Positions 4,541-22,849 are shown, numbered from the stretch's first letter. The stretch: 25,272 bases of DNA from an uncultured Desulfobacteraceae bacterium (GCA_964463515.1 CAYXDR010000001.1:1-25272), one strand, 5' to 3'. Program-made: numbers and translations. The notes: generated from the sequence alone by a model not told the origin.

Positions 4541-4616
4541 TATGAGCCAAGATGAAAGTGATTCAGGTATTCATATGAATAGCGGCATCATTCCCGATCA
4601 TAGGAAAAATCATAGT

Positions 4617-8400: not shown

Positions 8401-10821
8401 ATCATCTACCCCGGCGATGATCGCCTGGATGTTGGCCGGGTTCAACACGACCAGGGATATACCGTCTTCTGCATGGGGATAGATCCGCGCATATTCCTTG
8501 AGGATTTGGGAAATGACCCGTGATTCGCGGGTTTCCCGAAACAGCGCTGCGTCCTTGATGTCGTCGTCTTCGGGCGTGTCGTACTGCTGAAGGATTTTCG
8601 AGGAAAGCGGTCCGCTTTGGGCGGGCGGTTTTCCCACAAGGTGAATGTGGCCAAAGGAAGCGACTCGGGTGTCCAGCGCCCCGGTTGGAGTCGAAACGAG
8701 ACCGAACAACGGATAGTTGATGGTGGCTAGGTCGCAGATGTCCCGCCAGGTATTTTCAGTAATTTTGGTGCTGCTGTCGTCGTTCAGAAAAAACGTCGCC
8801 CGTTCCAGCCACGCATGGGCTAGAAACGCTTCCCGGTGATTGAGCATGCCCATGAGGGCGGGGTGCAAGGCGGTCACAGCGGCATGAGGGACAAACCGCG
8901 CCCAGGGAAAATTGGCGGCCTCTTCTGCCTTCGGTTTTTCGGTCAGCAAAAACGCCTTGTAAACAATGGGCCGGAATCTCTGAAATTCCGTTTTCTGGAT
9001 CAAATTTTGGATCACGTTTTCATATCGGTAATACAACCGACTGCCGTCGATCCAATGATCCTGAAGGGCGGAAAAGTACCCTTCATCGACCATCGCCCCC
9101 AAAAATTTGGCATAGGCGTCAGACAGGTCCGCTATCCCCAGCTTGCTCAGGTCTTTCAGGTCGATGTTCTGCAAGTTTTCAAACAGGTTGGCAATCGTCA
9201 GTTTGCTTAGCCCCGCACGAAGCACCCGGTGGATTTCGGTCTCGTCCGGCGCGAAAAACAGTTCAGGGTAGTGCTGAATGTGGTATACTGGCAGCCAGAA
9301 ACTGGGCTTCTCGACTTCATGGATCGCCCTGGCCATGTCCAGAAGATTCCGAAACGGATGGGTTTCCGGAAGCGCCCACTTGAATTTGCGGCGGACGCTG
9401 AGGCCTCTGATGTCTGATTTGAAGAGAATGTCAAACTGGAAATGGGGAACCGCGGTTTTTGTCTGGCCAAAAGGAAGGCTATCCATATCCAGCAATCCGG
9501 AGGAAAACTCGGCGTTGTCTTTCCCTTCTTCGGATTCCGGGGCTATGGGGCCGATGTATTTTTCCAGAAATGCGTCGATGCCCCCCAGCAACCCCCGTGC
9601 GAGCTCCTTGTTGTCGTTGTCGAAATCAACAAATTTTAAACCTCTGAGATAAATTCCCTTCAACGCATCAAAGGGTTGGATGGGGGATTTCTTTTTCCGT
9701 GTGCATTGAAATCTAAAATCGATGAGGGTCTGCCACAGTGCGGTTAAAATCGCTTCCAAAGGCGGACCATGAAGGGTTTTGAAGCCCTTGGGTTCTTTGA
9801 TTTTGTCCTCTTTGCCCTCGTCCTCGTCTTCCTCAAGTTCAGGTTCAGGCTGCGTATAGGTGTATCCGAGGATTTCATCCTTGAGCACGGCGAAATCGAA
9901 ATGGAGCAGCCGCCTACGGGCTTCTGGATCGTTGTACTCAACATAGATTTTGATGCAATCGAGGAGTTCATCTTCGCCCCCGAAGGCACCGCGAAGGTCG
10001 AGCGTAGGCTCTTTGTTCGGCCGGACCCGGAAGTCTTCCACTTTTTGGATGGCTTTTTTTCTGTCGTTCTCGTTGAAATATTTCTGATAACTAAAAAAAT
10101 CGATGGCAGCTTCAACATATTTTTTCCACTTGCTCCCTTTCATCTTGTGGAGAAACGGAAGCCCCCAGAAGGACAGGTTGCCGTAAAAAGCGGTCAGGGC
10201 GGCGTAGCTATCCATGACGCTAGTAAAATCGATCCATTCCAGAAAATCGGATATGCGAATCAAGTCGCCGGCCGCATGACGGCGAAGGGTTTCCAGGAGT
10301 TCTTCCATCGCCTCCAAGTGGGTCTCTTCCGGATCGATTTGCTTGTCGTACAAAAACCTTTCCAGCCAGCCCTTGAACCGGCTTTGCATCTCTTCTTTCC
10401 AAATTGTGTCTACCCCTACCTGATAAAAGTCTTCCAGACTGCCCTGGTCCGTAGCCTGCTCGACTCCAACCAGCATCACGATCAGCCCATCCTTCCCGGA
10501 TTCAGGTGTCCACTCAAGGTTTCTGTAATGCGTGAGCCGGTTTTCCGTGTCCACCCACCCGGCACTTTTGATCTGCTCCAAAATCTGTCCATCTGCCGTT
10601 TCTTCCCATTGCCGCCAGAGCTTGTAAGCGACTATGAATTGGAAGTCGATGTCTCGTTTGCTTTTTAGCCAGTATTCAGAGAGTTCGTTCCCAACTTCTT
10701 TGACCGCCGCGGGCGGTAGGGAGGAAAGAAACACGCGGAGTTCGCGGGTGTTGCGGTTTTTGAGGATAGGATGACATAGGGTTTTCAGATAAGTCAGAAG
10801 ACTCCGTGTAAAATAACGCAT
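5449..10821 (-). CDS. sspH: DndH(DptH)/SspH-like restriction protein with a PD-(D/E)xK nuclease motif and a C-terminal HerA/FtsK-type ATPase, 1790 aa
   Basis: C-terminal HILIFGKSGVGKT Walker A (6460-6483), IIVDYTNGF, IVLDEIQNL Walker B, and EGRKFGLSLILATQ (arginine finger and sensor of HerA/FtsK). YPDLL...ILECK lies at 7276-7353. Its size and third position after F- and G-like genes fit DndH/SspH. Confidence 0.72.
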   Translation of the reverse strand: MRYFTRSLLTYLKTLCHPILKNRNTRELRVFLSSLPPAAVKEVGNELSEYWLKSKRDIDFQFIVAYKLWRQWEETADGQILEQIKSAGWVDTENRLTHYRNLEWTPESGKDGLIVMLVGVEQATDQGSLEDFYQVGVDTIWKEEMQSRFKGWLERFLYDKQIDPEETHLEAMEELLETLRRHAAGDLIRISDFLEWIDFTSVMDSYAALTAFYGNLSFWGLPFLHKMKGSKWKKYVEAAIDFFSYQKYFNENDRKKAIQKVEDFRVRPNKEPTLDLRGAFGGEDELLDCIKIYVEYNDPEARRRLLHFDFAVLKDEILGYTYTQPEPELEEDEDEGKEDKIKEPKGFKTLHGPPLEAILTALWQTLIDFRFQCTRKKKSPIQPFDALKGIYLRGLKFVDFDNDNKELARGLLGGIDAFLEKYIGPIAPESEEGKDNAEFSSGLLDMDSLPFGQTKTAVPHFQFDILFKSDIRGLSVRRKFKWALPETHPFRNLLDMARAIHEVEKPSFWLPVYHIQHYPELFFAPDETEIHRVLRAGLSKLTIANLFENLQNIDLKDLSKLGIADLSDAYAKFLGAMVDEGYFSALQDHWIDGSRLYYRYENVIQNLIQKTEFQRFRPIVYKAFLLTEKPKAEEAANFPWARFVPHAAVTALHPALMGMLNHREAFLAHAWLERATFFLNDDSSTKITENTWRDICDLATINYPLFGLVSTPTGALDTRVASFGHIHLVGKPPAQSGPLSSKILQQYDTPEDDDIKDAALFRETRESRVISQILKEYARIYPHAEDGISLVVLNPANIQAIIAGVDDFLHQKLKKERAEEARDYPPYHLSLSLFMHVAESGEVSRWLSEWRKRWDPAEGATRYEFYQNCRLSVSQKVITQPDDYLILMKNGAANVDIAVLTRFMDTGEPSLNYEKTSPYKPDLDHLLKFPILEAPRCEDKRQSFPNLRSRIISNRRFRLAALHSELSVRLWSSDVPPDREHIVLSQSDFTPWAKIVDQMHRNASWVLCLDPSVDTRLIQKGSLDAQSEGKREIIGFASGVGTHGELNYTLSTERASLLDVQKMIQKRVNNLFGPWEPVDSENAARFLVREARKLSGISLVRATGRGEQVRDLIAYALVRRCLPVMAHNGPTLCDELVVLDAFPHWFTSIGGGREMYPDLLRISASLAEDGLIDVHATILECKISSNINRHIQKARSQLENGLHHLVARFRPKGGESNQAAYRFSGSSPIFRFDQRFWWAQLQRLIASKAVVENAELELATTALESLGEGRFRIQWKAAALTIWTEPTDYYNSDFFQTVEVWSFQQEGCEIAIPLISCGGALIRRIGRGNYPVALPLKSSETPPTSSPQALTAANLASTSQPIEPSDTLSPAEESASAETKDQDDGTPGSQQEGGESLEKGETTSPISTTVTRTPPNRLFLGVTDAKREIYWEFGHPELTNRHILIFGKSGVGKTYAIQALLLEMGLNGQNSIIVDYTNGFLPDHLEPVVVDILKPETHLVRQKPLPINPFRKQEQRITGFDPIPEDSHTVGGRIATVINSVYSNVGEQQRAVLIETIAAGLDEEGAEFRFPALLERLKEQGASGLTLANKLSPMVHMKLFGQDEAGNWDRLYGSGEVRANILQLAGVPRDIARIATEFILWDLYDYAANSGRKDVPLPIVLDEIQNLDHRLDAPLGKFLTEGRKFGLSLILATQTLSNLKGEERDRLFQASHKLFFKPAETEVKEYARILEQGSYEKAETWIARLNKLNRGECYSLGPTLNPGAGELENKIFKIHISSLQERLKKDSDND

Positions 10822-10844
10822 ATCTTCTCCGTCACAATTTTGGA

Positions 10845-12527
10845 TTATTTATCAGTGCTCTTTTCAGAAAACGGGTTTTCAATCAACGACACAGCATCTG
10901 ACAGCGGGGTCATAAAACCGGTGGCCAGCAACTTTTCTTCCAGCCATTGTTTGTGCCCGGCTGGCGCGCTCAGCTTCTGGTCGGGGTAGGTCCAGGCGAT
11001 GGCGTCGTTGAGCAAGGTTCCGGAAACCGCCGCGCCGTAGTGGCGGTAGAGGGCTTTCAGGAAGGTGGTCAAGCGCATCCGTTCGCCCGGCGGGATCAAG
11101 GCCAGTACAAAATACCGAAGCAAATTTTCTTGCAGCACGAAACGGGCGCCTGGCCCGGTTTTAGGGGCGATCAGGCCGATTTTCTTGCCCAATTTCACAA
11201 AAAGAGCCGTGCCCTGTTTGTCGGCATTCCGGTAGGTTTTTTCGCCGCTCTTTAGCGTCTGAATGCGACGGGTCCGGAGTGCGGCATGGAACATTTCCTT
11301 CACCCTGACCAGATTTTTCCGGGCGGCGGTTTTGAGAGCCCGGTCATCCAATTCGGGGTTCGTGATGATCCAGGCGTAGGGCTGGAGAGCGTCTTCGTCA
11401 TGAAGACCGGGATTGCCCCCCCAGTAGCGCCCGGCTTGGGCCGACAGGCTGCGTAGGACCTGGAACACGCAGCAAAGTTTGAGCATCTCGATTTTTTCCA
11501 CAGGGTCTAATAGCGCGGCGCTAATGTTTCGCAGTTCTATGGCGAACAGATAGGCTTCCGGCCAGCTTTCTTCCGGGCACCAGCCACATGTCGCACCTTT
11601 GGTCTCCCGGTCGATTTCTAAGGATGCGTCGGTCTCATTTTTTTCAATCCACGATGCGATACTGTTCAATATCGGGGCAGGTTTGCGAGATAGAAAGTCT
11701 TTGAGATTGTTTTCAATCTCCTCTTGGAGATTCTTCGCAGCGCCTGGGTAGCCCGCCCGTTCTTCAAATTCAAGGAGCTCGGGGGAATCTATCAGGCGGA
11801 AGAGATTGCATAGCTGAAGGTATAGGAGTTCGCCACCGCGGGCGAGGAAATCATGTTTGGAAAATGAAAACATTCTATTTTTCCAGGCTTGATGCCAATT
11901 CAAATTCGGTTCTTTCTTGCCTCTATTTTTTTCCCAAATGGCTTCTCCTGCGATTAATTCGGGAGCTAGTGGAATAAATGAATGTGCGGACCAGCCTCTA
12001 TTTCCCGAAACCCCTATAAATCCCATTAGAACTTGCTCAATTAATTCGATAGCGTCGCTTTTTGATAGGGATGGACTAGTATGTAAATGGTGTTTTAGAT
12101 TTGAAACTAGCTCTTGATATTTTTCAATGTGGCTTTTGTGCCTTCCTTCAACACCTGAAATCCCTAAAAACGAAAACAGCTTTATAATTATGTGCATTCT
12201 AGGATAATAAATCAAAGGTTTACCTGGGTCGACTTCTTGTAATTCACTAACTCTTGGAAAGCCTTTCCATTTATCTGAGTCTTTATACCCAAGCATATAA
12301 TTCGTTCCAATTTTTTTATCTGAAATAAAAATCAGCATGAATTCCACAAGATATTCGAGCTCTGTTTGATCATCTCGGACTCGTCGTCCAAACAATCGTA
12401 TAGCAGGATTAGCATCAGCGTTTTCATCCTCACCAATGTTTGGAAACTGCCTAACGTTACCGTTCGAAATTCTAGCGGATGACTTCAATTCCAATCCATT
12501 TTGCCATTGAAAATAATCCGATGGCAT
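10845..12527 (-). CDS. sspG: DndG(DptG)/SspG-like protein, 560 aa
   Basis: It lies between the F-like and H-like genes (gaps of 49 and 23 bp). The C-terminus (FLKALYRHYG...LEEKLLATGFMTPLSDAVSLIENPF) resembles the winged-helix-type tail seen in G-position proteins of DndFGH-like modules. Assignment rests on recalled motif plus synteny. Confidence 0.6.
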   Translation of the reverse strand: MPSDYFQWQNGLELKSSARISNGNVRQFPNIGEDENADANPAIRLFGRRVRDDQTELEYLVEFMLIFISDKKIGTNYMLGYKDSDKWKGFPRVSELQEVDPGKPLIYYPRMHIIIKLFSFLGISGVEGRHKSHIEKYQELVSNLKHHLHTSPSLSKSDAIELIEQVLMGFIGVSGNRGWSAHSFIPLAPELIAGEAIWEKNRGKKEPNLNWHQAWKNRMFSFSKHDFLARGGELLYLQLCNLFRLIDSPELLEFEERAGYPGAAKNLQEEIENNLKDFLSRKPAPILNSIASWIEKNETDASLEIDRETKGATCGWCPEESWPEAYLFAIELRNISAALLDPVEKIEMLKLCCVFQVLRSLSAQAGRYWGGNPGLHDEDALQPYAWIITNPELDDRALKTAARKNLVRVKEMFHAALRTRRIQTLKSGEKTYRNADKQGTALFVKLGKKIGLIAPKTGPGARFVLQENLLRYFVLALIPPGERMRLTTFLKALYRHYGAAVSGTLLNDAIAWTYPDQKLSAPAGHKQWLEEKLLATGFMTPLSDAVSLIENPFSEKSTDK

Positions 12528-12576
12528 TTTTGCAGCTCCTTTCCCCTATTTAGATCTAATATTGACTTGTTCTGGC

Positions 12577-15500
12577 TTACACAATTTCCAAAAAACCGTC
12601 CGACAGCATCACGCGAAATTGTTCCAGTTTTCCATCATGATTCAGTTGAATTAACCGCATCTCTTCGTGAGATTCGCTAGGGAGTCGGGCTGTGAGTAAA
12701 TTTTTAAACCACTCAAGCCGATCAAGGTAACCCAGATTCAACCGCTGTCCGAGTTCCCCTTCGCTGCGCAACAGCACGAAATCTAGAAATGGCAGATCAA
12801 GGGTCAAGTGGATTTCAGGGAAATAACGGTCTCGCAAAACAAGATGATATCGCTGTGGCCTGAATGTTTGGTAGATTTCCTCTAGAACCAGCTCAAAATT
12901 TGAAAAGGCGATCTCCGCAAGAAGAATCTGGACGCTCTGGCGAAGTGCTTCGTTACGTCGGTTGAGAGTAATGAACAGTTCGTTTCCGCGCCGGGTCTCC
13001 GGGATATAAAAACCCGTGTACTGCTCCAGTAGCACGTGCAACACTTTTTGCTTCAACTCTTCCCGACGTGTAGGCGTTAGTTTCGTCGGCGAGCATTGCC
13101 AGGATTCGGTTTCTACCAGCATGGGGGAGCCAGTGAACCCGCCTACGAAGTCCTTCTCACTCCCTGCTTCTGCAAATGCGCCGAACACAAAAAAGAGTCG
13201 CCTGAACTCCTGGCGGAAACGGGCGCCGACGGCCTCGGACCCATAGCCGGAAAGCGTCATTCCCCGAAGGCTCTCGAAAACTGGTTTCAGCGTGTCCGGC
13301 AGTAGAGGGGTCGGGCCCTCTTCGAAAGTCCACAGCACCCTGTCTAACGACAAAAAGGGTCTGGCGCCCATCTCTATCGGCATCAGACATTGAATAGCTT
13401 TGAGTCGCTGGGCCTTTTCATCTATAGAAGCGCCGTGAAACCCAAAGAAGCGATTGTAAAACAAATATGCGTTGACAGGCGGGGGCTTAGGGCTTTCAGC
13501 TATTTCCCGAATGCGCCCACAGTCTAGCCCGCCCGTCAGGCTATATGCTAGATGAGCCGACACCTGCCGCAAGGTCAATCGTTTGCCGTATTCATACAGC
13601 AGGCGATAAATCAAGGCGATCCGTTCCGATGTTATTTCATAGCTCTCCCGAATTGCTTTAAGATTCATCTGAACGGGGCAATGGGCATAAATATCGCACG
13701 ACCGGCACCCGTCCCAATTCTCGTTATCGACGAGCCGATGAAAAAGTTCCCGGGAGATTTGAAGGTTGTCGAGCTGCGACAGGTTGATCAGGACAAAGGG
13801 CACGCCAAGGTCCTTGAATTTCGTGGGTTCTTTTTCCCGGAGAAGTCCTAGAAGACTGTTGCCGATTTTGATTTCTGTGAGACCGTAGGCTGGGGCACAC
13901 GCTTCTAAGATCTCCAAAAGACGACCCGTGTTGGAAATGATCAGCCACCGCCCATCTCCTTGGGCAGCTCGGTTTAGAGCCCTTGCAGCTTCTTCGTCGG
14001 TCAGCTCACTCAAGTCCTTGATCAGGTGTATTTTATAGCCGTTGATTTGTTTTTCTTCATGGGACCCCAAGCCGGATTCTAAAGGCTCTGACATGTCCTT
14101 TTTTTCCAGCCTTTTAAAGATTTCCAGGCAAATCGTTGATTTGCCGTCCCCGGCATGCCCGGTCAGGATAATGTTCCCCCCATCGGTTCCTGTCAGCTTT
14201 TCCCACACCAGATCGGTCACGGGCCAGGCGACATGGATGGATCCGAAAAACAGGCTCCGAGCTTGGGCCTCAGCCAGCGCATTACGATTGTCGGCGGTGG
14301 TGTTGTGAAGCTGGTTCAAATAATCCAAGAAATTGCCTGCGGTCTCTAGCGCGTTTTCCCTTGCAGGCGGTGCTTCAGGGCTATACACGTGCCATTTTTC
14401 CGCCGATTCCGCCGTTTGTGGCGTCACTTGGACCGAGTCCTCATCGCTGAAAACAAAATCGAATTCATCTCTCATTTCGTTGATATTTTGAAAGCGTGCA
14501 TCACGAAACGGCTGAACGGCCTTGTGAAGCCAGAGTGAAAGCTCCTCTGGAATGTCCTTGCGATAGGAAGCTGCGAAACGCGGCGTGGCGGTAAGGGCAG
14601 GGGTCCCGGAATAAGGACTGACGCCGCACAGCCATTCAAACAGGGTGACGCCTAGGGCAAATAAATCTCCACTTTCGCAAAACTCATACTCGGCGCCCTG
14701 GAACAAATCTGGTGCCACATAGGCGTCTGTTCCCATATAGGGCCCTACGGATGGAACGCCCGAAGCACCGAAGTCGATTAATACAGGGGTGCCGTCCTCT
14801 TTGAGGAGTATGTTGTCGGGTTTGATGTCGTTGTGCAAAATGATGGTTTGGCGCGAGGGATCGGCATGCAAAGTCGCAATTCCTTCCATCAGACAAAATG
14901 CGACATGCCGGAAAAGGGGCAGTTCCGGGCGAATGCTGTTGTCGATCCGGTTTCGCAGCGGATTGCCGGAGACCAGTTCCAGAACCAAGTAATAGCGGCC
15001 ATCTGCCAATTGGTTGAAGGTTTCATAGCCGACAATACAGGGATTGGATACGGTTTTTAGGGCATCCCTTTCGGCGAAAATCCGATCAAGAGCCGAATCC
15101 TGGTGGTACAATTTTATCGCAACCCAGTTGTCGCTGCCCTGAAGCGCTTTGTAAACTTGGGAGTCGCGGCCTTTCCCGATCCATTCTTGAATGGTGTACA
15201 CACCGAAAATATCGCCTGGTTTTAGGATTCGATTGGATTCTCGGTGGGTTTCTTCAGCGATTTCTTTCAGTTCAAGCTGTAACTCGCCGATTTCCTGGGG
15301 CCGGTCCTTTCGTTGGAATTGGATCATCATGACGATGTCTGTTCGAAGGGATTCAGGAATGCCGATTTTGGCCAGTTTTGATTCGATAGATTCATACACG
15401 GATTGAGCGTCGGATATCAGATCCGTGGAATACTCGAAAGGCGGTTTGCCGATGAGCAGTTCATACGCTATAACCCCTAAACTGAAGATGTCCGTTGCCT

Positions 15501-17217
15501 CCGCAAAAGGCTGATGATGGTAAAGTTCCGGGGCGAGGTAAGGGGACCTCTGAAGTTGGAGGTCGTCGGGAAGAACCGTCAACCGGTTATCTTCAGGCAA
15601 GTAGGACAGATCGAAATTCATCAGTTTTGGCGTAGTCCCAAACATCATGATGTTTTCCGGGGTTAAATTGCGATGGACAATGCCTTCCTGATGAACAGCT
15701 TCAAGACCTTTGGCAATGCCTCGTATGATAGGCAAGGCCTTTTCAAGAGAAAAGGGGCCGCTTTTCTTCATCACATTGGCGAGCGTACCTTCTTTTCGAG
15801 ACCAGTCTGAAGCTTCGATAATCAGGCCTTCTTCATGATAAATGTCCCAAACCTTCAAAATGTTGGGATGATCACTTATCCTAGTCAGTGCTTTGAGACT
15901 GTTTCGGCTTTTGTTCCGCTGGTTCTCCCGTTCTTCCTGGCCTAGAGTGGGATCGATGGAAAAAATGCGGAGCCGCTTGACGGTTTGGAGCTGATTGCTG
16001 GTAGGTCTTGCCAATAGTTCAATGAGATGCTGCGAGTCAGTGAGATTTTCCAAAATCTCATAGCCCGGAATCTCGAGGCCCTTCCGCCGAGGGGATTGGG
16101 CTTCGTTGCGGAGGCGTTCCGCAATCTGCCTAGCTTGGGCGGTGGTCAGTATGGAATTCGGCTGCCCTAGGCAGCGTTTGAAATATTTCGTAAAGGTGGC
16201 AATGCTGTCGAAGGTAGGGGCTTTTTTTTCCGTTTTCGCTCCATCGGCGTTGTGGACCGTAGCATCCGGGTTTGTCAGAAGAACAATAGATTGAAAGGGA
16301 TAATCTTTAGGTATAAAGGGAAGTTTCTTTCTGCAAAACCCTCGCAGAACTTTTGCTTTGTAGTTGTTGGAGCGATGCGGATCTGTACATGGGGTCTGTT
16401 CGGGCCCCCTGAACCATTCGTAGGGGCGAACTTCGATTTCTCCGAACCAGTGTTTAAGTTCGACAATGGCTGTACAAAAGGATGAGACTACAATAAGGTC
16501 GCATTCAAGGTATTGGCTGGTAGAAGGGTCGTAAAGATCGAAGTTGGGGATTAGTTCAATTTGCTTTCCGAGAGCAGCGAAAATTTGTTTGAGAGCATTT
16601 TTTTCATGAGGAAATTTGCTTTTAATGTCCATATATTTTCTTCCTGATGCCATCATTACACGTGCTTTTGAATCACTAGTGATATCTGAATAATCAACAC
16701 TTGATTGCTCTTCCAAATTACTCTTGATTGCTTCAACATGGTATTTTGGAGAAAATATTGGTCCGGAAGAAACAATTTGAGATATTATTTCTTCTAATTT
16801 CGACTTGATAACATCACGATATCTTTTTGTTTTCAAAAGATTATACACATCAGGATTCAAAAATGAATAATTTATAATTTCATTGATCAATCTTGGTGTA
16901 AATCTTTTACGTTTGTTATATTCATTTTCTTTTCCTTGAAACACCTTGTGATTCCAAAAATTTGATGTGATAAGATGGTAATATGGATATTCAGGAAAAC
17001 ACTCATCTTCATTGGTGAATTTTTTCCATAAATATCTAAACATATTGATCAGTTCATCATCAAACGGAAAGCGATTCTCACGATTCGGATTTTCTTCAAT
17101 TAAATAACAGATTGAAAGAAGCAACACAAATTTATTTGGATTTGCTTTTTCAGATGACTTCCAAACGGATATCCTATTAATTTGTTTTAGTAATTCATCT
17201 ATTTGCAAATCAGACAT
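12577..17217 (-). CDS. Multidomain fusion: SBD-like domain + NERD nuclease + pseudokinase + Ser/Thr kinase + DndF/SspF-like P-loop domain, 1546 aa
   Basis: Residues about 1-145: NKFVLLLSICYLIE...EYPYYHL...FW. About 196-345: FPHEKNAL, ECDLIVV, IVELKHW (NERD). Kinase 1 has HRN(515-517) and NFD(534-536). Kinase 2 has IGKGRDSQVY, VAIK702, HNDIKPDN (H795) and DFG (D815). The C-terminal part has IILTGHAGDGKS (K1026), IKDLSE, ISNTGRL and a C..C.....CP cluster. The start overlaps the sspD stop by 19 bp. Confidence 0.8.
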   Translation of the reverse strand: MSDLQIDELLKQINRISVWKSSEKANPNKFVLLLSICYLIEENPNRENRFPFDDELINMFRYLWKKFTNEDECFPEYPYYHLITSNFWNHKVFQGKENEYNKRKRFTPRLINEIINYSFLNPDVYNLLKTKRYRDVIKSKLEEIISQIVSSGPIFSPKYHVEAIKSNLEEQSSVDYSDITSDSKARVMMASGRKYMDIKSKFPHEKNALKQIFAALGKQIELIPNFDLYDPSTSQYLECDLIVVSSFCTAIVELKHWFGEIEVRPYEWFRGPEQTPCTDPHRSNNYKAKVLRGFCRKKLPFIPKDYPFQSIVLLTNPDATVHNADGAKTEKKAPTFDSIATFTKYFKRCLGQPNSILTTAQARQIAERLRNEAQSPRRKGLEIPGYEILENLTDSQHLIELLARPTSNQLQTVKRLRIFSIDPTLGQEERENQRNKSRNSLKALTRISDHPNILKVWDIYHEEGLIIEASDWSRKEGTLANVMKKSGPFSLEKALPIIRGIAKGLEAVHQEGIVHRNLTPENIMMFGTTPKLMNFDLSYLPEDNRLTVLPDDLQLQRSPYLAPELYHHQPFAEATDIFSLGVIAYELLIGKPPFEYSTDLISDAQSVYESIESKLAKIGIPESLRTDIVMMIQFQRKDRPQEIGELQLELKEIAEETHRESNRILKPGDIFGVYTIQEWIGKGRDSQVYKALQGSDNWVAIKLYHQDSALDRIFAERDALKTVSNPCIVGYETFNQLADGRYYLVLELVSGNPLRNRIDNSIRPELPLFRHVAFCLMEGIATLHADPSRQTIILHNDIKPDNILLKEDGTPVLIDFGASGVPSVGPYMGTDAYVAPDLFQGAEYEFCESGDLFALGVTLFEWLCGVSPYSGTPALTATPRFAASYRKDIPEELSLWLHKAVQPFRDARFQNINEMRDEFDFVFSDEDSVQVTPQTAESAEKWHVYSPEAPPARENALETAGNFLDYLNQLHNTTADNRNALAEAQARSLFFGSIHVAWPVTDLVWEKLTGTDGGNIILTGHAGDGKSTICLEIFKRLEKKDMSEPLESGLGSHEEKQINGYKIHLIKDLSELTDEEAARALNRAAQGDGRWLIISNTGRLLEILEACAPAYGLTEIKIGNSLLGLLREKEPTKFKDLGVPFVLINLSQLDNLQISRELFHRLVDNENWDGCRSCDIYAHCPVQMNLKAIRESYEITSERIALIYRLLYEYGKRLTLRQVSAHLAYSLTGGLDCGRIREIAESPKPPPVNAYLFYNRFFGFHGASIDEKAQRLKAIQCLMPIEMGARPFLSLDRVLWTFEEGPTPLLPDTLKPVFESLRGMTLSGYGSEAVGARFRQEFRRLFFVFGAFAEAGSEKDFVGGFTGSPMLVETESWQCSPTKLTPTRREELKQKVLHVLLEQYTGFYIPETRRGNELFITLNRRNEALRQSVQILLAEIAFSNFELVLEEIYQTFRPQRYHLVLRDRYFPEIHLTLDLPFLDFVLLRSEGELGQRLNLGYLDRLEWFKNLLTARLPSESHEEMRLIQLNHDGKLEQFRVMLSDGFLEIV

Positions 17218-18092
17218 GTCTCTGCCTCTTCCTCTTCCCTGATATTATTCAGAATGCTATCTCCTTCTGTTCGGAAATCCATATTTTGAAAATGATCAAG
17301 AAGTTTTTTCTTTCCTAATGATGTTTTATTAGTAACCTTTGAAGCTGCGTTTTTAAGGATTTCATCTCGCCTATCAATGAGCTCCCTTAGCGTTTCACCT
17401 TCACTCCAGGTATAATTTTTTTTCCTGCTATTGATATTTTTGTAATCAAAATTAGATTCCCTGAAATTGTCATAAAATTCCTCGAATTGACAGGCCTTCT
17501 GAAAACACTCAGGATGGTTGTCATATAACGCAATCCATTCTTCTTTCCTTTGAAAAAAGCAAAAATAACAACCCGATCTACTTCTCCATTTATAGTAATC
17601 AGGAATCCCAACATCTGTTTCCGCCAATATTTGAAAAACATCTCTTTTTACTATATTATCCTCAATAAATGGATAAAATGGCACAATATTGTTTTTGCCA
17701 TGGGGATCATAGCCCATTCTGTCTTCATCAGCTCGCAAGGCAATATAAATATAGGCAAAATCATTGCCTATATATTTTTCAAAAGGTTCAATTTTGAGTT
17801 GCCGGGTACACCAACGATTTGTTGGTGAAGGAAGACATCCATAATATATTCTTAGGAGCGCAGTAAAACGATCCGTTTGCGGTTTATTTTTCGGAAGCCT
17901 AATAATTCTGATCTGAAGATAGGCCTCCATGCGCTCCAAGTATTCATATGTTTCTGGCAATTCATGGCCCGTATCCAAAAAAACATATTCTATATTCGGA
18001 ACTCGATCTTTCAGATACACCGCCAATGCGGCGCTGTCTTTCCCGCCCGACAAAGCCAGAATATGTCTTTTATTATCGCTTTTTCTTGGCAT
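17199..18092 (-). CDS. sspD: SspD-like PAPS-reductase-family (PP-loop) DNA phosphorothioation enzyme, 297 aa
   Basis: PP-loop LSGGKDSAAL (about 18035-18052), VFLDTGHELPETY, RWCTRQLK, RSGCYFCF and a C-terminal CLIC. It is adjacent to DUF4007 and SspC-like ATPase genes. A GGGAAG SD-like sequence lies upstream. Confidence 0.88.
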   Translation of the reverse strand: MPRKSDNKRHILALSGGKDSAALAVYLKDRVPNIEYVFLDTGHELPETYEYLERMEAYLQIRIIRLPKNKPQTDRFTALLRIYYGCLPSPTNRWCTRQLKIEPFEKYIGNDFAYIYIALRADEDRMGYDPHGKNNIVPFYPFIEDNIVKRDVFQILAETDVGIPDYYKWRSRSGCYFCFFQRKEEWIALYDNHPECFQKACQFEEFYDNFRESNFDYKNINSRKKNYTWSEGETLRELIDRRDEILKNAASKVTNKTSLGKKKLLDHFQNMDFRTEGDSILNNIREEEEAETCLICK

Positions 18093-18277
18093 CTATTTTT
18101 CTTCCCTGTTAACTGCATTTTTAATTAGTTCAACAATACCTTAAGGCAACATCCAAATGAGCAAGATTTCGATCATATTAGTCCAAGTACCATTAGAACA
18201 ACGCTGTTTCTGTATGCAACAATTCGAAATACATTTGATTTGATAAGAATTAATTAACTTGATAGTGTAAGTATATT

Positions 18278-18305
18278 ATTTTAGAAAATATGAACATACA
18301 AACAA
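18278..18305 (-). promoter_or_regulatory. Possible sigma70-type promoter upstream of sspD
   Basis: On the minus strand, TTGTTT-16 nt-TAAAAT lies in the only long intergenic gap of the cluster (18093-18413). The region is very AT-rich, so a chance match is plausible. Confidence 0.25.
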
Positions 18306-18413
18306 TATGAAAGCCATGGTTGCAGAATAAAACATAAATATTCTAAAAGTCTTTACGGGCTTTTCTTTTCTTGAAATCGGTCAACCACCATCCCAAGTTG
18401 CAAATTCAGCAAC

Positions 18414-21400
18414 TCAATCTTTTTCCCCGCTCTTCGTTTTATCACCCAACAAATGTTCACCCATCATTATTAGTAATGATTTGAGTTGATCAGGATCATT
18501 TCCCTCTATCAATCGAGCCATCTTTTCTTTCACACCTGCCATCTCCTCCTTATTCATCCAGACGATTTCGCTTTCCATAGTTCCGTCCGGGCGAGTTAAC
18601 GAAATCAGCCGCGCCTCTTTGCCTTCTTTACCTTCTGGCAACCTCCGCCGCTCCTCTGCCGCTAATCGCTCCAGCGCCAGAAAACGCCGGGCAAGGTCAT
18701 GCATGCGAGTTGAAAACCCACTCAAATCCGCATCGCTCCAGGATTCCACCAGCCGCTGACTGACGATGGTCCCAATGGCGGATACCCACTCATTGTCCGT
18801 TCCTCGGTTCCGCGCCAAGATTGCTACCAGCGGCTTCAAGCGTTTCTCGGAACACCGCCTTACCAAGGGCGTAGCTCGTTCCTTCAGGTCTTCACGAAAC
18901 GTCTTGAGATCTCCCCGGCTACCGAATGCTTCCTGAAGGACCATTCGGATCCTGTCCTCCAGCCGCTCGAATGCCTGGGCTAGCTCCCCCACCGCATTGC
19001 GGAATCGATTTTGGAAATCTTCGACAGCTTGAGCGTCGAAGTCAGGCGTGCCATCAAAGGCTGAAACACCGACAGCCTTTGGCAGATCCGTGAACAGCAA
19101 ATCAATGGGGTCTTTTGAATGGAGCAGTGCCTGGAGCAGGTTCCGGGCCTCCCGGCTAACCGATCGGGTCTCTTTCACGTAGGCCGGCAGCCGGTCCGCA
19201 AACTGGACCAGCGGGCCCACAATGTTGACCATGGTGGAGTTTCGCAGTTGGCGATCCTCCTGGAACGGGCTGCTATTCAACAACTCCTGGTAAACTCGGA
19301 AGACTTTCCCCTGAATGCCCAATGGCGAAAATTTGCGCACGTCAAAATATTCCGGCCGCTTGACCATCAGTTCCAGATCTTCCGGTGTCAGATACGGGAT
19401 GAACGCTCCCTCCTGATACAGCGCCGTATCTTCGGAGCGGACCAGGAGATACAGGCAGATTAAGATAGGGATCGGGCCATCCTTCATTCCAAAGGGCGGC
19501 TTCCGAAGCATGGCGATCAGGTTAGGCAGGTGCAACAGCGCGTCCTCGGTCCGGTCCAAAGCTGTGTCAAGGGCCTGCCACGCCGCATAAAAATGAGTAT
19601 CCGGTTCCGGCGGGAAAAACCGCCATGCCATTTCGCCATCGTGTCGATGCAGTCCCTCGGCCGCCAACATCGTTCGGTAAATGGCTACTTCCGGGCCTGT
19701 CCCGCTCAGCCCCAGTTTCTCCTTGGTTTCCCCGTTCAGCATGGCTTGGATGAGTTCCCGCTGTGCACGGGCCGCAGCGGAGGACAACCGAGCCCGGTTA
19801 ATCAACTCGTTCCGAATCACCGGACAGCTTTGATACGTCTCGTCGCACAAGCGGGAAAGCAATCCCGATAAGTCCCGTATGGAACTCAAGTCATACCGGC
19901 GTTCTCCGCTTTGCCAGACCACTTCAGGGTTGCCAGGGGTATACAGATCCGCCAGAAACCGCTTTAGCTGCTCCTCTGCGGCACCGGCTCGAAAAAGGGC
20001 CTCGCGCCGGGCCACACCGTCCCGTTCTAGTTCAGGCGCCTCTGTCAGGATGGCGGTAGCAGCCGCAGCTTCCAGTGCCCGTTCCCGGAGCCGGTCCTCC
20101 TCCCGGGCAAAAGCAACCAGAACGGGTCGTCCGTCGTCAGTCTTGCCCGGAAATCCATTCAATGGCCCATCATTGCCGAAAACATAAAGCAACAGGCCAT
20201 CCGCTTCCTCCGCTTTAAAAGCCGTCACGGCTTCCGCAACATCGTCCACAGCACACCAATGCCGCTTAAAATGGCGCAGCGTGCCAGTGCGGTAGGAGTG
20301 GCGCGAAGCAGTCAAAGGCAACATGGGCGCCGCCTTCTCCAAAAGCTCCGCTAGAGGTCGTGCCGCGATGGCTGGTTTATGCCGGTCGATAGCCTCCGGG
20401 ATGTCAATGTCGCTTCCCTCCCATAGCCGGAATTCATCGGCATATTCCCGGTAAATCAGCATCCCCTTTTCCGATAAAGGGCCCAGAGATGACTCCAGGG
20501 CCTCGTCGGCGTCCATTCCGGGCTGCGATACCGCAAAGCGCAGCAGGTCGCGGGAAGCCCGAAACCCAGACGGGCCAGAGATCAGATTTAAAAGACCGAT
20601 GGTTTTGAGCAGGTTTCTCTGAGGCCTGGGCAGGTTGCGGGCACCATCGACTATATCGTGAATTTCAAACCAGCGGCTGGCCCCTGGGCGGCTCAGCGCC
20701 ATGGAAGGAGCCGCCCCGAGGAAATAGTCATACAGCCGCTCAGGCCCGAAGGTCGGTGCGCCATATCCTGTCTTGTCCAGCTCCCGGTTTCCAAGGAACG
20801 CCGGCAGGGCGTGCGGTTCGCCGCCGCAAAGAAAGGCGAACAGCGTCCGATCGTTTTGAGCGAAACGGGTGCACAATTCCGGCAGCAGGGCGGCGGTCAG
20901 CGGATGGAGCGGGAAAAAGCGCGCCATTGACTTCGCATCGGCCCCGGCGATTTCCGTAACACCTAAACGATCCGTTTCCCGCTGATAATGTTCGGCCCAG
21001 TCCTTAACAGAGTGGAACGCATCCGGCGCTCGGTCCGGCCGACCTAACGCTTCTCCGATGAAATCGAGCATCTGGATGCGCGGCTCCACAAAGGAAATGT
21101 CCTCGAATCTCCCCTGAACTTTTCCCCATTCCTGTCGCTGAAGACGGCTGAGGCCAGCGCCATATGCTTCGAAAGCCTGGTGGAGGCATACCCAGAGATA
21201 AATGTTTTCGCTTTCCGCCAGGGTCTGGACAATGAACAGGTCGCCCCGGCCCGGATGCCGGGCCAGGTATTCGAGGTTCTTTCCGAACTCGTCGATAACG
21301 ACGGCTAGGGGCGACCGGCTGATCCGGCCTGCTTCCTGGAATAACGCCACTAGTCGGGCGGCATCGAGTTCTTCACCGGAAAGATAATCGGCAATGTCGG

Positions 21401-21884
21401 CAGCCAACAGGTTGAAGGCTTTTTTGGTGGGGTCGGATTTACCAGCAGCGCCCACGGCCCGGGCTAAGGCCGCTCCCAGAGTTCGATTGACCGGCTCGAA
21501 GGCAGCGGTGGCGGGAACCCGAAAGAATCCCTTGGACTTGAACCGCCGCTTTTTCATTGTTTCCATCAGTTGCGCCGACAGCGCGCTATCCTTCCGCTCC
21601 AGCATGTTTCGGGCGGTGCGAGCTTTGGATTCTTTGATTGGATCGCCGCAAAGGGAAAGCAGAAAATGGACAAAGGCCGATTTCCCCATGCCGTATGGGC
21701 CAGTCAAGGACCAGGCGGATGCCCTTTGGCCATTGAGTCCAGCAGAAAGCCGATGAATGATCTCCAGCCCCTTTCCAGTCAGAAGATACCGATCAAGGGT
21801 TTCCGGGTCGTTCAGATCCCTTTCCAGGTTGACCGAGCGGGCGATTTGGGCATCGGGGCGAACAATTTCTGATAGTTTCATCAC
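18414..21884 (-). CDS. sspC: SspC-like P-loop ATPase, 1156 aa
   Basis: RSVNLERD N-terminus, Walker A TGPYGMGKS (about 21678-21704), Walker B VVIDEFGKNLEY, GRFEDISF, FPLHP and RFAQNDRTLFAFL. It sits between DUF4007 and the PAPS-reductase gene. The start is coupled to the upstream stop (GTGATG): either GTG at 21884 or ATG at 21881. Confidence 0.85.
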   Translation of the reverse strand: MMKLSEIVRPDAQIARSVNLERDLNDPETLDRYLLTGKGLEIIHRLSAGLNGQRASAWSLTGPYGMGKSAFVHFLLSLCGDPIKESKARTARNMLERKDSALSAQLMETMKKRRFKSKGFFRVPATAAFEPVNRTLGAALARAVGAAGKSDPTKKAFNLLAADIADYLSGEELDAARLVALFQEAGRISRSPLAVVIDEFGKNLEYLARHPGRGDLFIVQTLAESENIYLWVCLHQAFEAYGAGLSRLQRQEWGKVQGRFEDISFVEPRIQMLDFIGEALGRPDRAPDAFHSVKDWAEHYQRETDRLGVTEIAGADAKSMARFFPLHPLTAALLPELCTRFAQNDRTLFAFLCGGEPHALPAFLGNRELDKTGYGAPTFGPERLYDYFLGAAPSMALSRPGASRWFEIHDIVDGARNLPRPQRNLLKTIGLLNLISGPSGFRASRDLLRFAVSQPGMDADEALESSLGPLSEKGMLIYREYADEFRLWEGSDIDIPEAIDRHKPAIAARPLAELLEKAAPMLPLTASRHSYRTGTLRHFKRHWCAVDDVAEAVTAFKAEEADGLLLYVFGNDGPLNGFPGKTDDGRPVLVAFAREEDRLRERALEAAAATAILTEAPELERDGVARREALFRAGAAEEQLKRFLADLYTPGNPEVVWQSGERRYDLSSIRDLSGLLSRLCDETYQSCPVIRNELINRARLSSAAARAQRELIQAMLNGETKEKLGLSGTGPEVAIYRTMLAAEGLHRHDGEMAWRFFPPEPDTHFYAAWQALDTALDRTEDALLHLPNLIAMLRKPPFGMKDGPIPILICLYLLVRSEDTALYQEGAFIPYLTPEDLELMVKRPEYFDVRKFSPLGIQGKVFRVYQELLNSSPFQEDRQLRNSTMVNIVGPLVQFADRLPAYVKETRSVSREARNLLQALLHSKDPIDLLFTDLPKAVGVSAFDGTPDFDAQAVEDFQNRFRNAVGELAQAFERLEDRIRMVLQEAFGSRGDLKTFREDLKERATPLVRRCSEKRLKPLVAILARNRGTDNEWVSAIGTIVSQRLVESWSDADLSGFSTRMHDLARRFLALERLAAEERRRLPEGKEGKEARLISLTRPDGTMESEIVWMNKEEMAGVKEKMARLIEGNDPDQLKSLLIMMGEHLLGDKTKSGEKD

Positions 21885-22849
21885 TGCGCCCTTCTCTTAT
21901 AGTAAGCTTCCAGCGTCGCATCCCGCAATTCCATGGGATCGCTCTCGAACTGTAGTTGTTGATTGCCGTAGGATTCGGTGAACACGACTCCGTCTATTCC
22001 AGATGTAGCGCGGTCCAGCCGCCTGCCAATGTCGGTCTCGGAAAGCTGGAAGACGCGACCGGGGCTGTTCCACCCATAGGCAATGGCGCTCAGAGCCAGA
22101 CTTTTCGCCCCCGCGCTGTAGTGATGTGCGAACTCGAAGCAGGCAGCCATAAAGATCGCATCCGGCAGATCTGCCTTCTCGCCTAAATGGAATCGATAAT
22201 AGCCCTTGGTTTCCGCGGGCATTATAAAGCCCAAATGGGTAAAGGGGCATTCGATCTCGTCGGATTTGCTGTCTCGGGGGGGCGCATACATCCGAATAAA
22301 ACAGGAAGCGTCCTTTTCGAAGGAGGAGGCCGATAAGCGGCTGAATCCTGGGATGTCGGCGGTATATTCGCTGAATTTCCGGGCTAGCTCCTTGGCAGCA
22401 AAGCCTCCGGCAGCTGACTGGTTGATCGAAATCGGCCATGCGGGAGCCACGATTGGCGGGACAAACAGATTCCAGTGGAGCAGCCACAGGCTCGCAGGAT
22501 CTTCTAGGTAGGGATCCCATCCATCGTCGGCAAGGAGGGCTTTACCCAACGGCGCGGGTTGCATGAGACCGCTCACTTTGGGAACATCAGCTTTATCTTT
22601 AGGGGCGATGACGTGGAAGGCCACACACCAGAACCGGATGGATCGGACCATGTTCTTGCCCACCCCTAGGATTTCGATGGCGTCGTCTCGGTCGAAGATG
22701 GCTGGATCGCCGGATTGTGAATCGGCTCCATTTAAATCCAAAAACCCCGCTACTCCGTCATACCCTTTCTTGAGCCATCCATAGCGAGGGCAAAAAGTTT
22801 CGTGGCGGGCGAAAAATCCGGTTCGGGTTTTGTGTTGAGGGGAGGTCAT
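21881..22849 (-). CDS. sspB: SspB-like DUF4007-family protein, 322 aa
   Basis: FARHETFCPRYGWLKKG, LGVGKNMVRSIRFW, WDPYLEDPASLWLLHW and IECPFTHLG are characteristic DUF4007 motifs. AGGAGA SD is 6 nt before the ATG. Confidence 0.88.
   Translation of the reverse strand: MTSPQHKTRTGFFARHETFCPRYGWLKKGYDGVAGFLDLNGADSQSGDPAIFDRDDAIEILGVGKNMVRSIRFWCVAFHVIAPKDKADVPKVSGLMQPAPLGKALLADDGWDPYLEDPASLWLLHWNLFVPPIVAPAWPISINQSAAGGFAAKELARKFSEYTADIPGFSRLSASSFEKDASCFIRMYAPPRDSKSDEIECPFTHLGFIMPAETKGYYRFHLGEKADLPDAIFMAACFEFAHHYSAGAKSLALSAIAYGWNSPGRVFQLSETDIGRRLDRATSGIDGVVFTESYGNQQLQFESDPMELRDATLEAYYKRRAQ

What the first reader, a model, noticed from the sequence alone, without database searches (positions are those of the whole stretch)
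16590..18413. AT-rich cassette carrying exactly sspD plus the SBD-like domain inside a GC-rich cluster
Seen: 60-nt samples give 12/60 GC at 16861, 22/60 at 17041 and 16/60 at 17641, versus 39/60 at 16081 and 42/60 at 19981. The right edge is at the sspC stop and the left edge falls near the SBD/NERD boundary. Inference: the PT writer enzyme and a putative PT reader arrived together as one exchanged module, analogous to specificity swapping in R-M systems, and the SBD fusion may be a recent product of that exchange.
Basis: partly seen in the sequence, partly recalled or inferred. Interest (0 to 1): 0.62.

Follow-up and report, generated by a model that had tools for sequence, protein, structure and literature searches.

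The report
Old AT-rich sspD plus sulfur-reader cassette
A sharply bounded AT-rich block inside a DNA-sulfur (phosphorothioate) anti-phage operon covers the sulfur-inserting gene sspD and the sulfur-reading domain next to it; it is real and recurs in distant relatives, but here it is an old, conserved cassette and not a recent swap.

Summary
**Observation: confirmed.** A maximum-likelihood fit puts the AT-rich block at 16580-18530, with 33% GC against 50% and 58% in the flanks. It is the lowest-GC 2-kb stretch in the 3.5-Mb assembly.

**Content of the block:**
- the last ~38 codons of sspC
- a 321-nt spacer
- sspD
- the SBD and linker (aa 1 to ~205) of an SBD-NERD-kinase-kinase-SspF protein

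**Interpretation: partly supported.**
- *Not recent.* A same-genus genome is collinear at 95% identity across both edges. In a 75%-identical relative the SBD (73%) and SspD (82%) diverge in step with the backbone.
- *The fusion is not a product of the event.* The fused architecture is widespread and already published.
- *Functional genes.* dN/dS is 0.17-0.18.
- *The module idea holds for the family.* At least five distant loci show the same GC trough from the sspD start to the SBD end. Two pairs of near-identical backbones carry different SBD types, with a sharp break at the KFPHE motif, which is this block's left edge.
- *Not shown.* Whether sspD moves together with the SBD.

**Open question.** The AT-richness has outlasted saturating divergence, so something maintains it; the cause is unknown.

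The parts
16580..18530 (.). AT-rich block (33.4% GC) between flanks of 50.3% and 58.4% GC
   Evidence: Two-change-point ML fit; left CI 16429-16598, right CI 18501-18588. Lowest 2-kb GC window in the genome.
18414..21884 (-). sspC (1156 aa). Only its last ~38 codons (18417-18530), a variable C-terminal tail, lie inside the AT-rich block.
   Evidence: PADLOC SspC E=0; change point; the L061 alignment ends at aa ~1130.
18093..18413 (-). 321-nt AT-rich (31% GC) non-coding spacer between sspC and sspD, with the sspD ribosome-binding site at its end
   Evidence: Least conserved bin against G001 (90.8%). No Rfam match. Promoter-like sites not above shuffles.
17199..18092 (-). sspD (297 aa), a PAPS-reductase-like PP-loop enzyme and the sulfur-inserting writer subunit. 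Its end overlaps the next gene's start by 19 nt.
   Evidence: PADLOC SspD 2.3e-92, model positions 1-276 of 277. Pfam PAPS_reduct. SGGKDS and C-terminal CxxC conserved. dN/dS 0.17 against G001.
16768..17217 (-). SBD (sulfur-binding winged-helix domain), aa 1-150 of the 1546-aa fusion protein
   Evidence: PDB 8h0l SBDHga E 1.6e-16. Cavity positions K29, Y77, P78 and H81 retained; H25 of SBDHga is N28 here (alignment with residues from PMC10602919). dN/dS 0.18.
16618..16767 (-). Linker, aa 151-200, poorly constrained; includes in-frame Met196 (16630-16632)
   Evidence: dN/dS 0.88 against G001. 6-37% identity to relatives. NCBI's gene model in G001 starts in this stretch.
16603..16617 (-). KFPHE motif (aa 201-205), the conserved start of the NERD block and the junction at which SBD cassettes are exchanged in relatives
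   Evidence: Sharp identity break just before this motif in P0293/P0299 and P0295/P0300. SBD-less G004 protein aligns from window aa 200.
12577..16602 (-). Backbone of the fusion protein: NERD, pseudokinase-like and kinase domains, SspF/DndF-like P-loop core (50% GC)
   Evidence: Pfam NERD, 2x Pkinase. PADLOC PglW 1e-58, SspF 7e-34.

Best explanation
The block is the operon's phosphorothioate writer/reader cassette. It holds sspD and, overlapping it by 19 nt, the sulfur-binding domain that forms the N-terminus of the first restriction-module protein.

Shown:
- It is a sharply bounded compositional unit.
- It encodes intact genes under purifying selection.
- It has sat in this backbone since before the split from the sister species and from a 75%-identical relative.
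- The same sspD-start to SBD-end trough recurs in distant Ssp loci with different downstream partners.
- In this protein family the SBD is replaced as a unit between near-identical backbones, with the junction at the conserved KFPHE motif that is also this block's left edge.

Inferred: the cassette belongs to a set of old, deeply diverged alternative modules (at least two SBD types). These are occasionally exchanged through recombination in the conserved flanks, as happens with the target-recognition domains of type I restriction systems. Its AT-richness is a maintained equilibrium and not the scar of a recent import. One possible cause is that such diverged modules escape the GC-favouring force (recombination-linked or selective) that acts on the backbone. 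Another is that AT-rich, rare-codon sequence is itself selected.

Functionally, SspBCD would write phosphorothioate. The SBD would tether or gate the NERD-kinase-SspF/G/H machinery on sulfur-marked self DNA.
For: Composition and boundaries.

Age in this lineage:
- G001 is collinear at 95.4% with uniform identity across both edges.
- P0288 per-domain identity: SBD 74, NERD 83, kinases 79/70, SspF 70-78%. SspD P0276 is 82%.
- P0288's SBD is as FYMINK-rich relative to its backbone as the window's (0.32 vs 0.30).

Functional: dN/dS is 0.17 (sspD) and 0.18 (SBD), against 0.12-0.26 in neighbours.

Recurrent trough with edges at sspD start and SBD end:
- L061 10074-11250
- L019 9808-11467
- L099 2581-4045
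- L127 2104-3151
- L147 5817-7897
- L078 and L101 also show it.

The two SBD-less relatives (G004, G313) have no sspD trough.

sspD-SBD adjacency, often overlapping, occurs with stand-alone, SspF-fused and NERD-kinase-fused SBDs.

SBD swapping:
- Two deep SBD types are incongruent with the backbone tree; the AU test gives p 4e-10.
- P0293/P0299 are 86% identical in the backbone and 25-35% in the SBD.
- P0295/P0300 are 80% against 18-28%.

SspD divergence: window-L061 is 52% where SspC at 49% predicts about 70% (5-95% range 60-82).

Persistence: at 75% amino-acid identity and dN/dS ~0.2, synonymous sites have turned over more than once. Cassette GC3 is nevertheless 0.23-0.33 against 0.56-0.64 in the flanks. 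This is my own rough amelioration estimate.

The AT-rich N-terminal part of SspG is also its most divergent part.
Against: - No exchange event is demonstrated for this window's own cassette. SspD and SBD behave as vertically co-inherited with the backbone as far back as P0121 and P0290.
- SspC and SspD trees are broadly congruent across about 50 loci, so sspD is not often swapped separately from sspC.
- Co-transfer of sspD with the SBD is not shown. In clade B, SspD and SBD identities do not co-vary (L099-L101: SspD 83%, SBD ~45%).
- The SBD is FYMINK-rich relative to the backbone in 27 of 27 fusions, so part of the bias may be intrinsic to the fold.
- The long SspD branches of the AT-rich loci could reflect acceleration in place and not foreign origin.
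- No donor was found in phages or plasmids.
- There are no mobility genes and no conserved repeats at the edges.
- The proposed cause of the maintained AT-richness is untested.
Confidence: 0.55

Rival explanations
1. First reader's version. A recent one-off horizontal exchange brought sspD and the SBD in together from an AT-rich donor, and the SBD-NERD fusion was created by that event.
For: Strong composition step at all three codon positions, typical of a ~30-35% GC source. The window's SspD is roughly equidistant (44-58%) from everything except the P0002/P0276 cluster.
Against: The sister species has the same block at uniform 95% identity. P0288 shares SBD (74%) and SspD (82%) in step with the backbone (75%). 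The fusion architecture is widespread and published. L061 has the same trough. No donor was found.
Confidence: 0.04
2. No exchange at all. The sspD-SBD segment is kept AT-rich in place by selection at the DNA or RNA level. Examples would be rare codons or AU-rich mRNA that throttle the writer subunit and the start of a toxic restriction protein, or binding of a nucleoid-associated silencer. Alternatively a local mutational bias does it. The long SspD branches are then a by-product.
For: The trough persists across saturating divergence without amelioration. It recurs in unrelated hosts with 39-66% GC backbones. Purifying selection is intact. The AT-rich SspDs have long branches. The SspD tree is compatible with the SspC tree.
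Against: It does not explain the swaps of SBD type between 80-86%-identical backbones. It does not explain why the right edge falls inside sspC and not at a gene start. SBD-less relatives lack the sspD trough. L054 and P0144 show GC-rich SBDs are viable. No mechanism has been tested, and promoter-like sites are not enriched.
Confidence: 0.27
3. The low GC is mostly an intrinsic amino-acid composition effect of these two domains (K/N/I/Y/F-rich DNA-binding and PP-loop folds) plus noise, with no evolutionary meaning.
For: The SBD is FYMINK-rich relative to the backbone in 27 of 27 fusion proteins. sspD is slightly lower in GC than sspC in 55 of 71 loci, median -2.7 points.
Against: GC3 is 0.23-0.33 against 0.56-0.64, so synonymous sites are shifted too. 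The non-coding spacer and the sspC tail share the bias. Streptomyces SspDs are 63% GC and L054's SBD is 59% GC. The window's drop of 20 points is about 7 times the family median.
Confidence: 0.04
4. Assembly or binning chimera in a fragmented MAG.
For: The genome is in 641 contigs with 3.6% contamination.
Against: Long ORFs cross both edges. An independently assembled genome of another species has the identical structure.
Confidence: 0.01

Closest known systems
SspBCD-SspFGH phosphorothioate defence system (Vibrio anguillarum FF-93; Wang et al., mBio 2021, PMC8092258)
   Same: Order sspB-sspC-sspD followed by F, G and H genes. PADLOC hits: SspB 3e-89, SspC E=0, SspD 2e-92, SspF 7e-34, SspG 8e-16, SspH/DndH.
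   Different: Here the F protein carries an N-terminal SBD, NERD and two kinase domains. A further DUF4007-like plus BrxC-like pair follows. No cysteine desulfurase (sspA/iscS) is in the window. The paper mentions no SBD, kinase or GC heterogeneity.
DndF-core proteins with variable N-terminal domains (Krishnan, Burroughs, Iyer, Aravind, NAR 2024, PMC10853773)
   Same: The paper describes wHTH, NERD and inactive plus active S/T/Y-kinase domains successively fused to the P-loop core, and equates the SBD with that wHTH. This is exactly the 1546-aa architecture seen here.
   Different: That work is about domain architecture. In the passages retrieved I found no report of a compositional trough, of the sspD-SBD adjacency as a unit, or of exchange of SBD type between near-identical backbones.
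SBDHga / ScoMcrA-type sulfur-binding domains of PT-dependent nucleases (PDB 8h0l; NAR 2023, PMC10602919)
   Same: Sequence homology at E 1.6e-16 over aa 24-143. Cavity positions K, Y/L-P and H are retained. The paper notes a clade (3% of SBD homologues) joined to an unknown domain and a kinase.
   Different: Those SBDs direct nucleases to cut PT-DNA. Here the SBD sits in a system expected to spare PT-marked self DNA. One cavity residue differs (His to Asn28). Binding is untested.
Target-recognition-domain exchange in type I R-M hsdS genes, and other low-GC polymorphic cassette loci
   Same: A diverged variable core between conserved arms. Alternative types occur in near-identical backbones. 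GC is lower than in the surroundings.
   Different: The analogy rests on my own knowledge and was not tested. No change in specificity is shown, and the cassette may include a catalytic writer gene, which hsdS swaps do not.
PglW of Pgl / BREX type 2
   Same: NERD plus tandem kinase block; PADLOC PglW 1e-58 over aa 198-975.
   Different: No PglX/PglZ context. The block is fused to SspF and preceded by an SBD.

Membership tests
SspBCD phosphorothioate modification module | SspB (DUF4007), SspC (BrxC-like ATPase) and SspD (PAPS-reductase-like PP-loop) encoded in that order | tested here: met
   Pfam DUF4007 4e-79 and PAPS_reduct 1e-11. PADLOC SspB, SspC and SspD full-length hits.
SspBCD phosphorothioate modification module | SspD catalytic motifs: PP-loop SGGKDS and conserved cysteines | tested here: met
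   S15-G16-G17-K18-D19-S20, C95, C175, C178 and C293/C296 are invariant or nearly so among 30 homologues.
SspBCD phosphorothioate modification module | Cysteine desulfurase (SspA/IscS) partner | not tested
   None among the large ORFs of the window. It may act in trans. The rest of the genome was not searched for it.
SspBCD phosphorothioate modification module | Actual single-strand PT modification of DNA | not testable with these tools
   Needs PT mapping (iodine cleavage or LC-MS).
Sulfur-binding domain (SBD) | Sequence homology to a structurally solved SBD | tested here: met
   8h0l SBDHga, E 1.6e-16, aa 24-143. 396 homologues found, many of them N-terminal domains.
Sulfur-binding domain (SBD) | Sulfur cavity residues (SBDHga H25, K26, L75, P76, H79) | tested here: inconclusive
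   The window has N28, K29, Y77, P78 and H81. That is four of five retained, or as in SBDSpr/SBDSco (Tyr); His to Asn at the first position. No structure was modelled.
SspFGH restriction module | F (P-loop), G and H (DndH-like translocase/nuclease) genes downstream of sspD | tested here: met
   PADLOC SspF 7e-34 (aa 962-1293), SspG 8e-16 (C-terminal part only), DndH 1e-54 / SspH 9e-19. Same order in G004, L061, L146 and L030.
Recently acquired horizontal-transfer island | Atypical base composition with sharp edges | tested here: met
Recently acquired horizontal-transfer island | Absent from, or discontinuous in identity with, close relatives | tested here: not met
   G001 has it at uniform 91-98% identity per 500 nt. 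P0288 shares it.
Recently acquired horizontal-transfer island | Phylogeny of the cassette genes differs from that of the flanking genes | tested here: inconclusive
   Near relatives are congruent. The best SspD tree keeps the SspC grouping at support 31. At depth, the SBD rejects grouping with L061 (AU p 0.017, long-branch caveat), and window-L061 SspD is an outlier.
Recently acquired horizontal-transfer island | Mobility genes, flanking repeats or an identifiable donor | tested here: not met
   No donor in phages or plasmids. One 18-nt inverted repeat about 200 nt outside each edge is weaker in G001 and absent from other loci.
Exchangeable specificity cassette (hsdS-TRD-like) | Alternative, deeply diverged cassette types in otherwise near-identical backbones, with a junction at a conserved motif | tested here: met
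   Met at family level, not for this locus. P0293/P0299 and P0295/P0300 break just before KFPHE. A similar break occurs at aa ~200 in the SBD-SspF proteins.
Exchangeable specificity cassette (hsdS-TRD-like) | Writer (sspD) exchanged together with reader (SBD) | tested here: inconclusive
   The shared trough and the overlap of the two ORFs argue for it. SspD identity is slightly higher within an SBD type (63 vs 49-57% at equal backbone identity). There is no co-variation in clade B. DNA of the swapped pairs could not be fetched.
Exchangeable specificity cassette (hsdS-TRD-like) | The exchange changes recognition specificity | not testable with these tools
   Needs PT mapping and SBD binding assays.

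The most novel reading that the evidence does not exclude
sspD and the adjacent SBD form a co-adapted writer/reader specificity cassette. It exists as a few ancient allelic types, is exchanged between Ssp backbones by recombination in conserved flanks (the sspC tail and the KFPHE motif), and is actively kept AT-rich. That would be a backbone-modification counterpart of type I R-M specificity switching.
Probability: 0.15. Interest if true: 0.7.

Novelty: new variant of a known kind. Interest (0 to 1): 0.45.

Why it matters
- How phosphorothioate systems tell self from non-self is unresolved, and so is what sets their sequence specificity.
- The part of the operon with its own composition and history is exactly the sulfur-inserting enzyme plus the sulfur-reading domain.
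This marks the segment to exchange in experiments on specificity.
- It is also a clean case of within-operon GC contrast that outlasts synonymous saturation. That bears on the common habit of reading low GC as recent transfer.
- One practical consequence was seen in G001: NCBI's gene model there starts at an internal Met and omits the AT-rich SBD. SBD-less annotations in this family should therefore be checked against the DNA.

Tried and rejected
I could not fetch the contigs of P0002/P0276/P0288, P0121 or the swapped pairs. This blocked the direct breakpoint test on DNA.
- **Shorter-protein search** with fusion aa 1-330 found nothing.
- **Metagenome scan** with SspD did not return the 82% relatives.
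- **Early misreading.** I first took raw identities (L061 is the best hit for every protein except SspD) as phylogenetic incongruence. The trees showed SspD is compatible with the SspC grouping, with long branches. I now count it only as excess divergence.
- **Donor search** in phages (DNA) and plasmids (protein): nothing above 52%.
- **Promoter and terminator scan** of the block: 10 promoter-like sites against 8.3 +/- 3.0 in shuffles, so not informative.
- **Rfam:** no match in the window.
- **Flanking repeats.** One 18-nt inverted repeat (16368-16385 / 18723-18740, 17 of 18 complementary) was matched in 1 of 300 codon shuffles. It is 16 of 18 in G001, has no counterpart in L061, L099 or L019, and lies in unrelated coding motifs. 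I treat it as coincidence.
- **Suspected broken SBD in G001**, because of NCBI's 1359-aa model: rejected. The frame is open and the SBD is intact.
- **The G004 row** picked the wrong ORF and is not used.


Full report
**1. Layout**

The window is a whole contig of a 3.54-Mb, 641-contig genome with 52.1% GC. A same-genus genome carries the NCBI label Desulfatiglandaceae. All relevant genes are on the minus strand:

| Gene | Coordinates | Notes |
|---|---|---|
| sspB | 21881-22849 | |
| sspC | 18414-21884 | |
| spacer | 18093-18413 | 321 nt |
| sspD | 17199-18092 | |
| fusion protein | 12577-17217 | 1546 aa |
| SspG-like | 10845-12527 | |
| DndH/SspH-like | 5449-10821 | |
| DUF4007-like | 4617-5456 | |
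| BrxC/SspC-like | 209-4540 | |

The fusion protein contains these domains:
- an N-terminal domain homologous to the solved sulfur-binding domain SBDHga (8h0l, E 1.6e-16)
- a NERD domain
- two kinase domains
- an SspF-like P-loop core

**2.

- The block fits best at 16580-18530, with 33.4% GC against 50.3% and 58.4% in the flanks and a lnL gain of 150.
- It contains the lowest-GC 2-kb window of the whole assembly.
- The left edge (CI 16429-16598) is at fusion aa ~205-213, just past Met196 and the KFPHE motif.
- The right edge (CI 18501-18588) is inside the last ~38 codons of sspC, so the statement "at the sspC stop" is slightly off.
- All three codon positions are shifted. The pattern is what a gene from a ~30-35% GC genome would show.
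- ORFs cross both edges, and an independent genome has the same structure. It is therefore not a chimera.

**3. The cassette is not recent here, and the fusion is not its product**

- G001 aligns to window 192-22992 at 95.4% identity with 7 indel columns. Every 500-nt bin is at 91-98%, including both edges.
- Between the two genomes dN/dS is 0.17 for sspD and 0.18 for the SBD. Neighbouring genes give 0.12-0.26. Both genes are under purifying selection.
- The closest outside relative of the fusion protein is P0288.
- P0288 per-domain identity to the window: SBD 74%, NERD 83%, kinases 79/70%, SspF part 70-78%. SspD P0276 is 82%.
- Further relatives decline together: P0121 51 vs 49-63, P0290 43 vs 46-57, P0291 41, P0292 37, L061 28 vs 35-48 (SBD vs rest).
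- At least 25 distinct ~1500-aa proteins share the SBD-NERD-kinase-SspF architecture.
- The architecture is described in PMC10853773 and noted in PMC10602919.
- The SspC tree gives (L146,(L061,(window,G001))) with full support.
- In the best SspD tree the same four rows form one group, at weak support of 31.

**4. The module is real at family level**

*SBD follows sspD in many contexts.* An SBD profile finds an SBD directly after sspD, often overlapping its stop, in four settings:
- stand-alone (L019, L054, L078)
- fused to SspF (L147, L099, L127)
- fused to NERD-kinase-SspF (window, L061, L146)
- fused to ~300-aa proteins in Poribacteria

*The same trough recurs.* Change-point fits put an AT-rich segment from the sspD start to the SBD end in five loci:

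| Locus | Segment | GC: left flank → segment → right flank (%) |
|---|---|---|
| L061 | 10074-11250 | 56→40→54 |
| L019 | 9808-11467 | 65→49→60 |
| L099 | 2581-4045 | 60→34→50 |
| L127 | 2104-3151 | 55→33→45 |
| L147 | 5817-7897 | 47→35→45 |

- L078 and L101 behave likewise.
- The two SBD-less NERD-kinase-SspF loci (G004, G313) have no sspD-specific trough.
- Across 71 loci sspD is only 2.7 points below sspC at the median. The window is 20 points below.

*SBDs are swapped between backbones.*
- Among 27 fusion proteins the SBDs fall into two deep types. These do not follow the backbone tree; the AU test gives p 4e-10.
- P0293/P0299 are 86% identical after the junction and 25-35% before it.
- P0295/P0300 are 80% identical after the junction and 18-28% before it.
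- In both pairs the break comes immediately before the KFPHE motif. That position is the left edge of the window's AT-rich block.
- SBD-SspF proteins show the same kind of break at aa ~200.

**5. Does sspD travel with the SBD? Unresolved**

For:
- The two share the trough and their ORFs overlap.
- Window-L061 SspD identity is 52% where SspC at 49% predicts about 70% (5-95% range 60-82).

Against:
- SspC and SspD trees are broadly congruent.
- In clade B, SspD and SBD identities do not co-vary.

The DNA that would settle this could not be fetched.

**6. Why is the block still AT-rich?**

- At 75% amino-acid identity and dN/dS about 0.2, synonymous sites between the window and the P0288 lineage should be saturated.
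- A simple two-state amelioration estimate, which is mine and rough, predicts that GC3 would have recovered to about 0.5.
- Observed GC3 is 0.23-0.33.
- P0288's SBD is as FYMINK-rich relative to its backbone as the window's.
- The contrast is therefore maintained and not a fading scar.
- I favour the view that long-lived, deeply diverged cassettes sit at an AT-rich equilibrium while the backbone is held GC-rich. Direct selection for AT-rich or rare-codon sequence is the main rival.
- The AT-rich N-terminal part of SspG is also that protein's most divergent part. This fits a general link between variable modules and low GC in this operon.
- None of these causes was tested.

**7. Function (inferred)**

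- SspBCD writes phosphorothioate.
- The SBD retains four of the five sulfur-cavity positions. It would let the NERD-kinase-SspF/G/H machinery recognise marked self DNA.
- SspFGH is reported to damage unmodified DNA (PMC8092258).

**8. Verdict**

- The recent-swap and recent-fusion reading is not supported.
- The underlying idea of a separable writer/reader cassette is supported for the family, but only partly for sspD.

Noticed in passing
window 16368-16385 and 18723-18740: An 18-nt inverted repeat (17 of 18 complementary) lies about 200 nt outside each edge of the AT-rich block, inside the coding motifs DPHRS (NERD) and WSDADL (SspC). It was matched in 1 of 300 codon shuffles. It is 16 of 18 in G001 and has no counterpart in L061, L099 or L019. 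Probably coincidence.
   Followed up: partly
G001 contig C171 (L004 6116-10756), protein P0289: NCBI's model of the G001 orthologue is 1359 aa and starts at an internal Met, omitting the SBD, although the frame is open and the SBD is intact. Other 'SBD-less' models of 1351-1383 aa (P0298, P0302-P0305) may have the same cause and should be checked on DNA.
   Followed up: partly
window 11600-12700 and 209-1800: Two further AT-rich patches (41% and 39% GC) cover the N-terminal ~300 aa of SspG (GC3 0.36 against 0.68 in its C-terminal part) and the C-terminal ~540 aa of the BrxC-like protein (GC3 0.36). SspG's AT-rich part is also its most divergent part against L061 (26-40% vs 50-62%).
   Followed up: partly
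L030 10200-14700; L099 2581-4045 and 6000-7800; L040 8700-18000: Other Ssp loci are compositional mosaics with the step at the sspC/sspD junction. In Thiocapsa imhoffii, sspD+sspF+sspG are at 41-48% inside a 62-72% context. In L099, sspD+SBD and sspG are two separate troughs, as in the window.
   Followed up: partly
L019 10786-14293, L054 10738-13992, L078 2192-3393, L041 10815-: In several loci sspD is followed by a stand-alone SBD (168-171 aa) and then directly by a DUF4007-like and a BrxC-like gene, with no F/G/H genes. The second SspB/SspC-like pair of the window (209-5456) may therefore be a module of its own that pairs with an SBD.
   Followed up: no
L147 (G351 C7) 6767-9085; L099 3438-5792; L127 2720-5122: SBD fused directly to SspF (773-801 aa) with no NERD or kinase domains. 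This shows the SBD joins different heads of the F protein.
   Followed up: partly
L148 (G313 C1) 4400-7200: In this SBD-less relative the C-terminal half of sspC is the AT-rich part (26-34% against 41-49%), and sspD is GC-richer than its neighbours, the reverse of the window.
   Followed up: no
genome contigs C60 7000-10500, C4 14500-18000, C160 1-2500: These are the next lowest-GC 2-kb stretches of the assembly (35-39%). Their content was not examined.
   Followed up: no
window 23523-24668: A PD-(D/E)xK protein (PADLOC candidate family PDC-S02, 1e-129) lies upstream of sspB on the same strand and may be a separate defence gene. Collinearity with G001 ends at about 22992.
   Followed up: no
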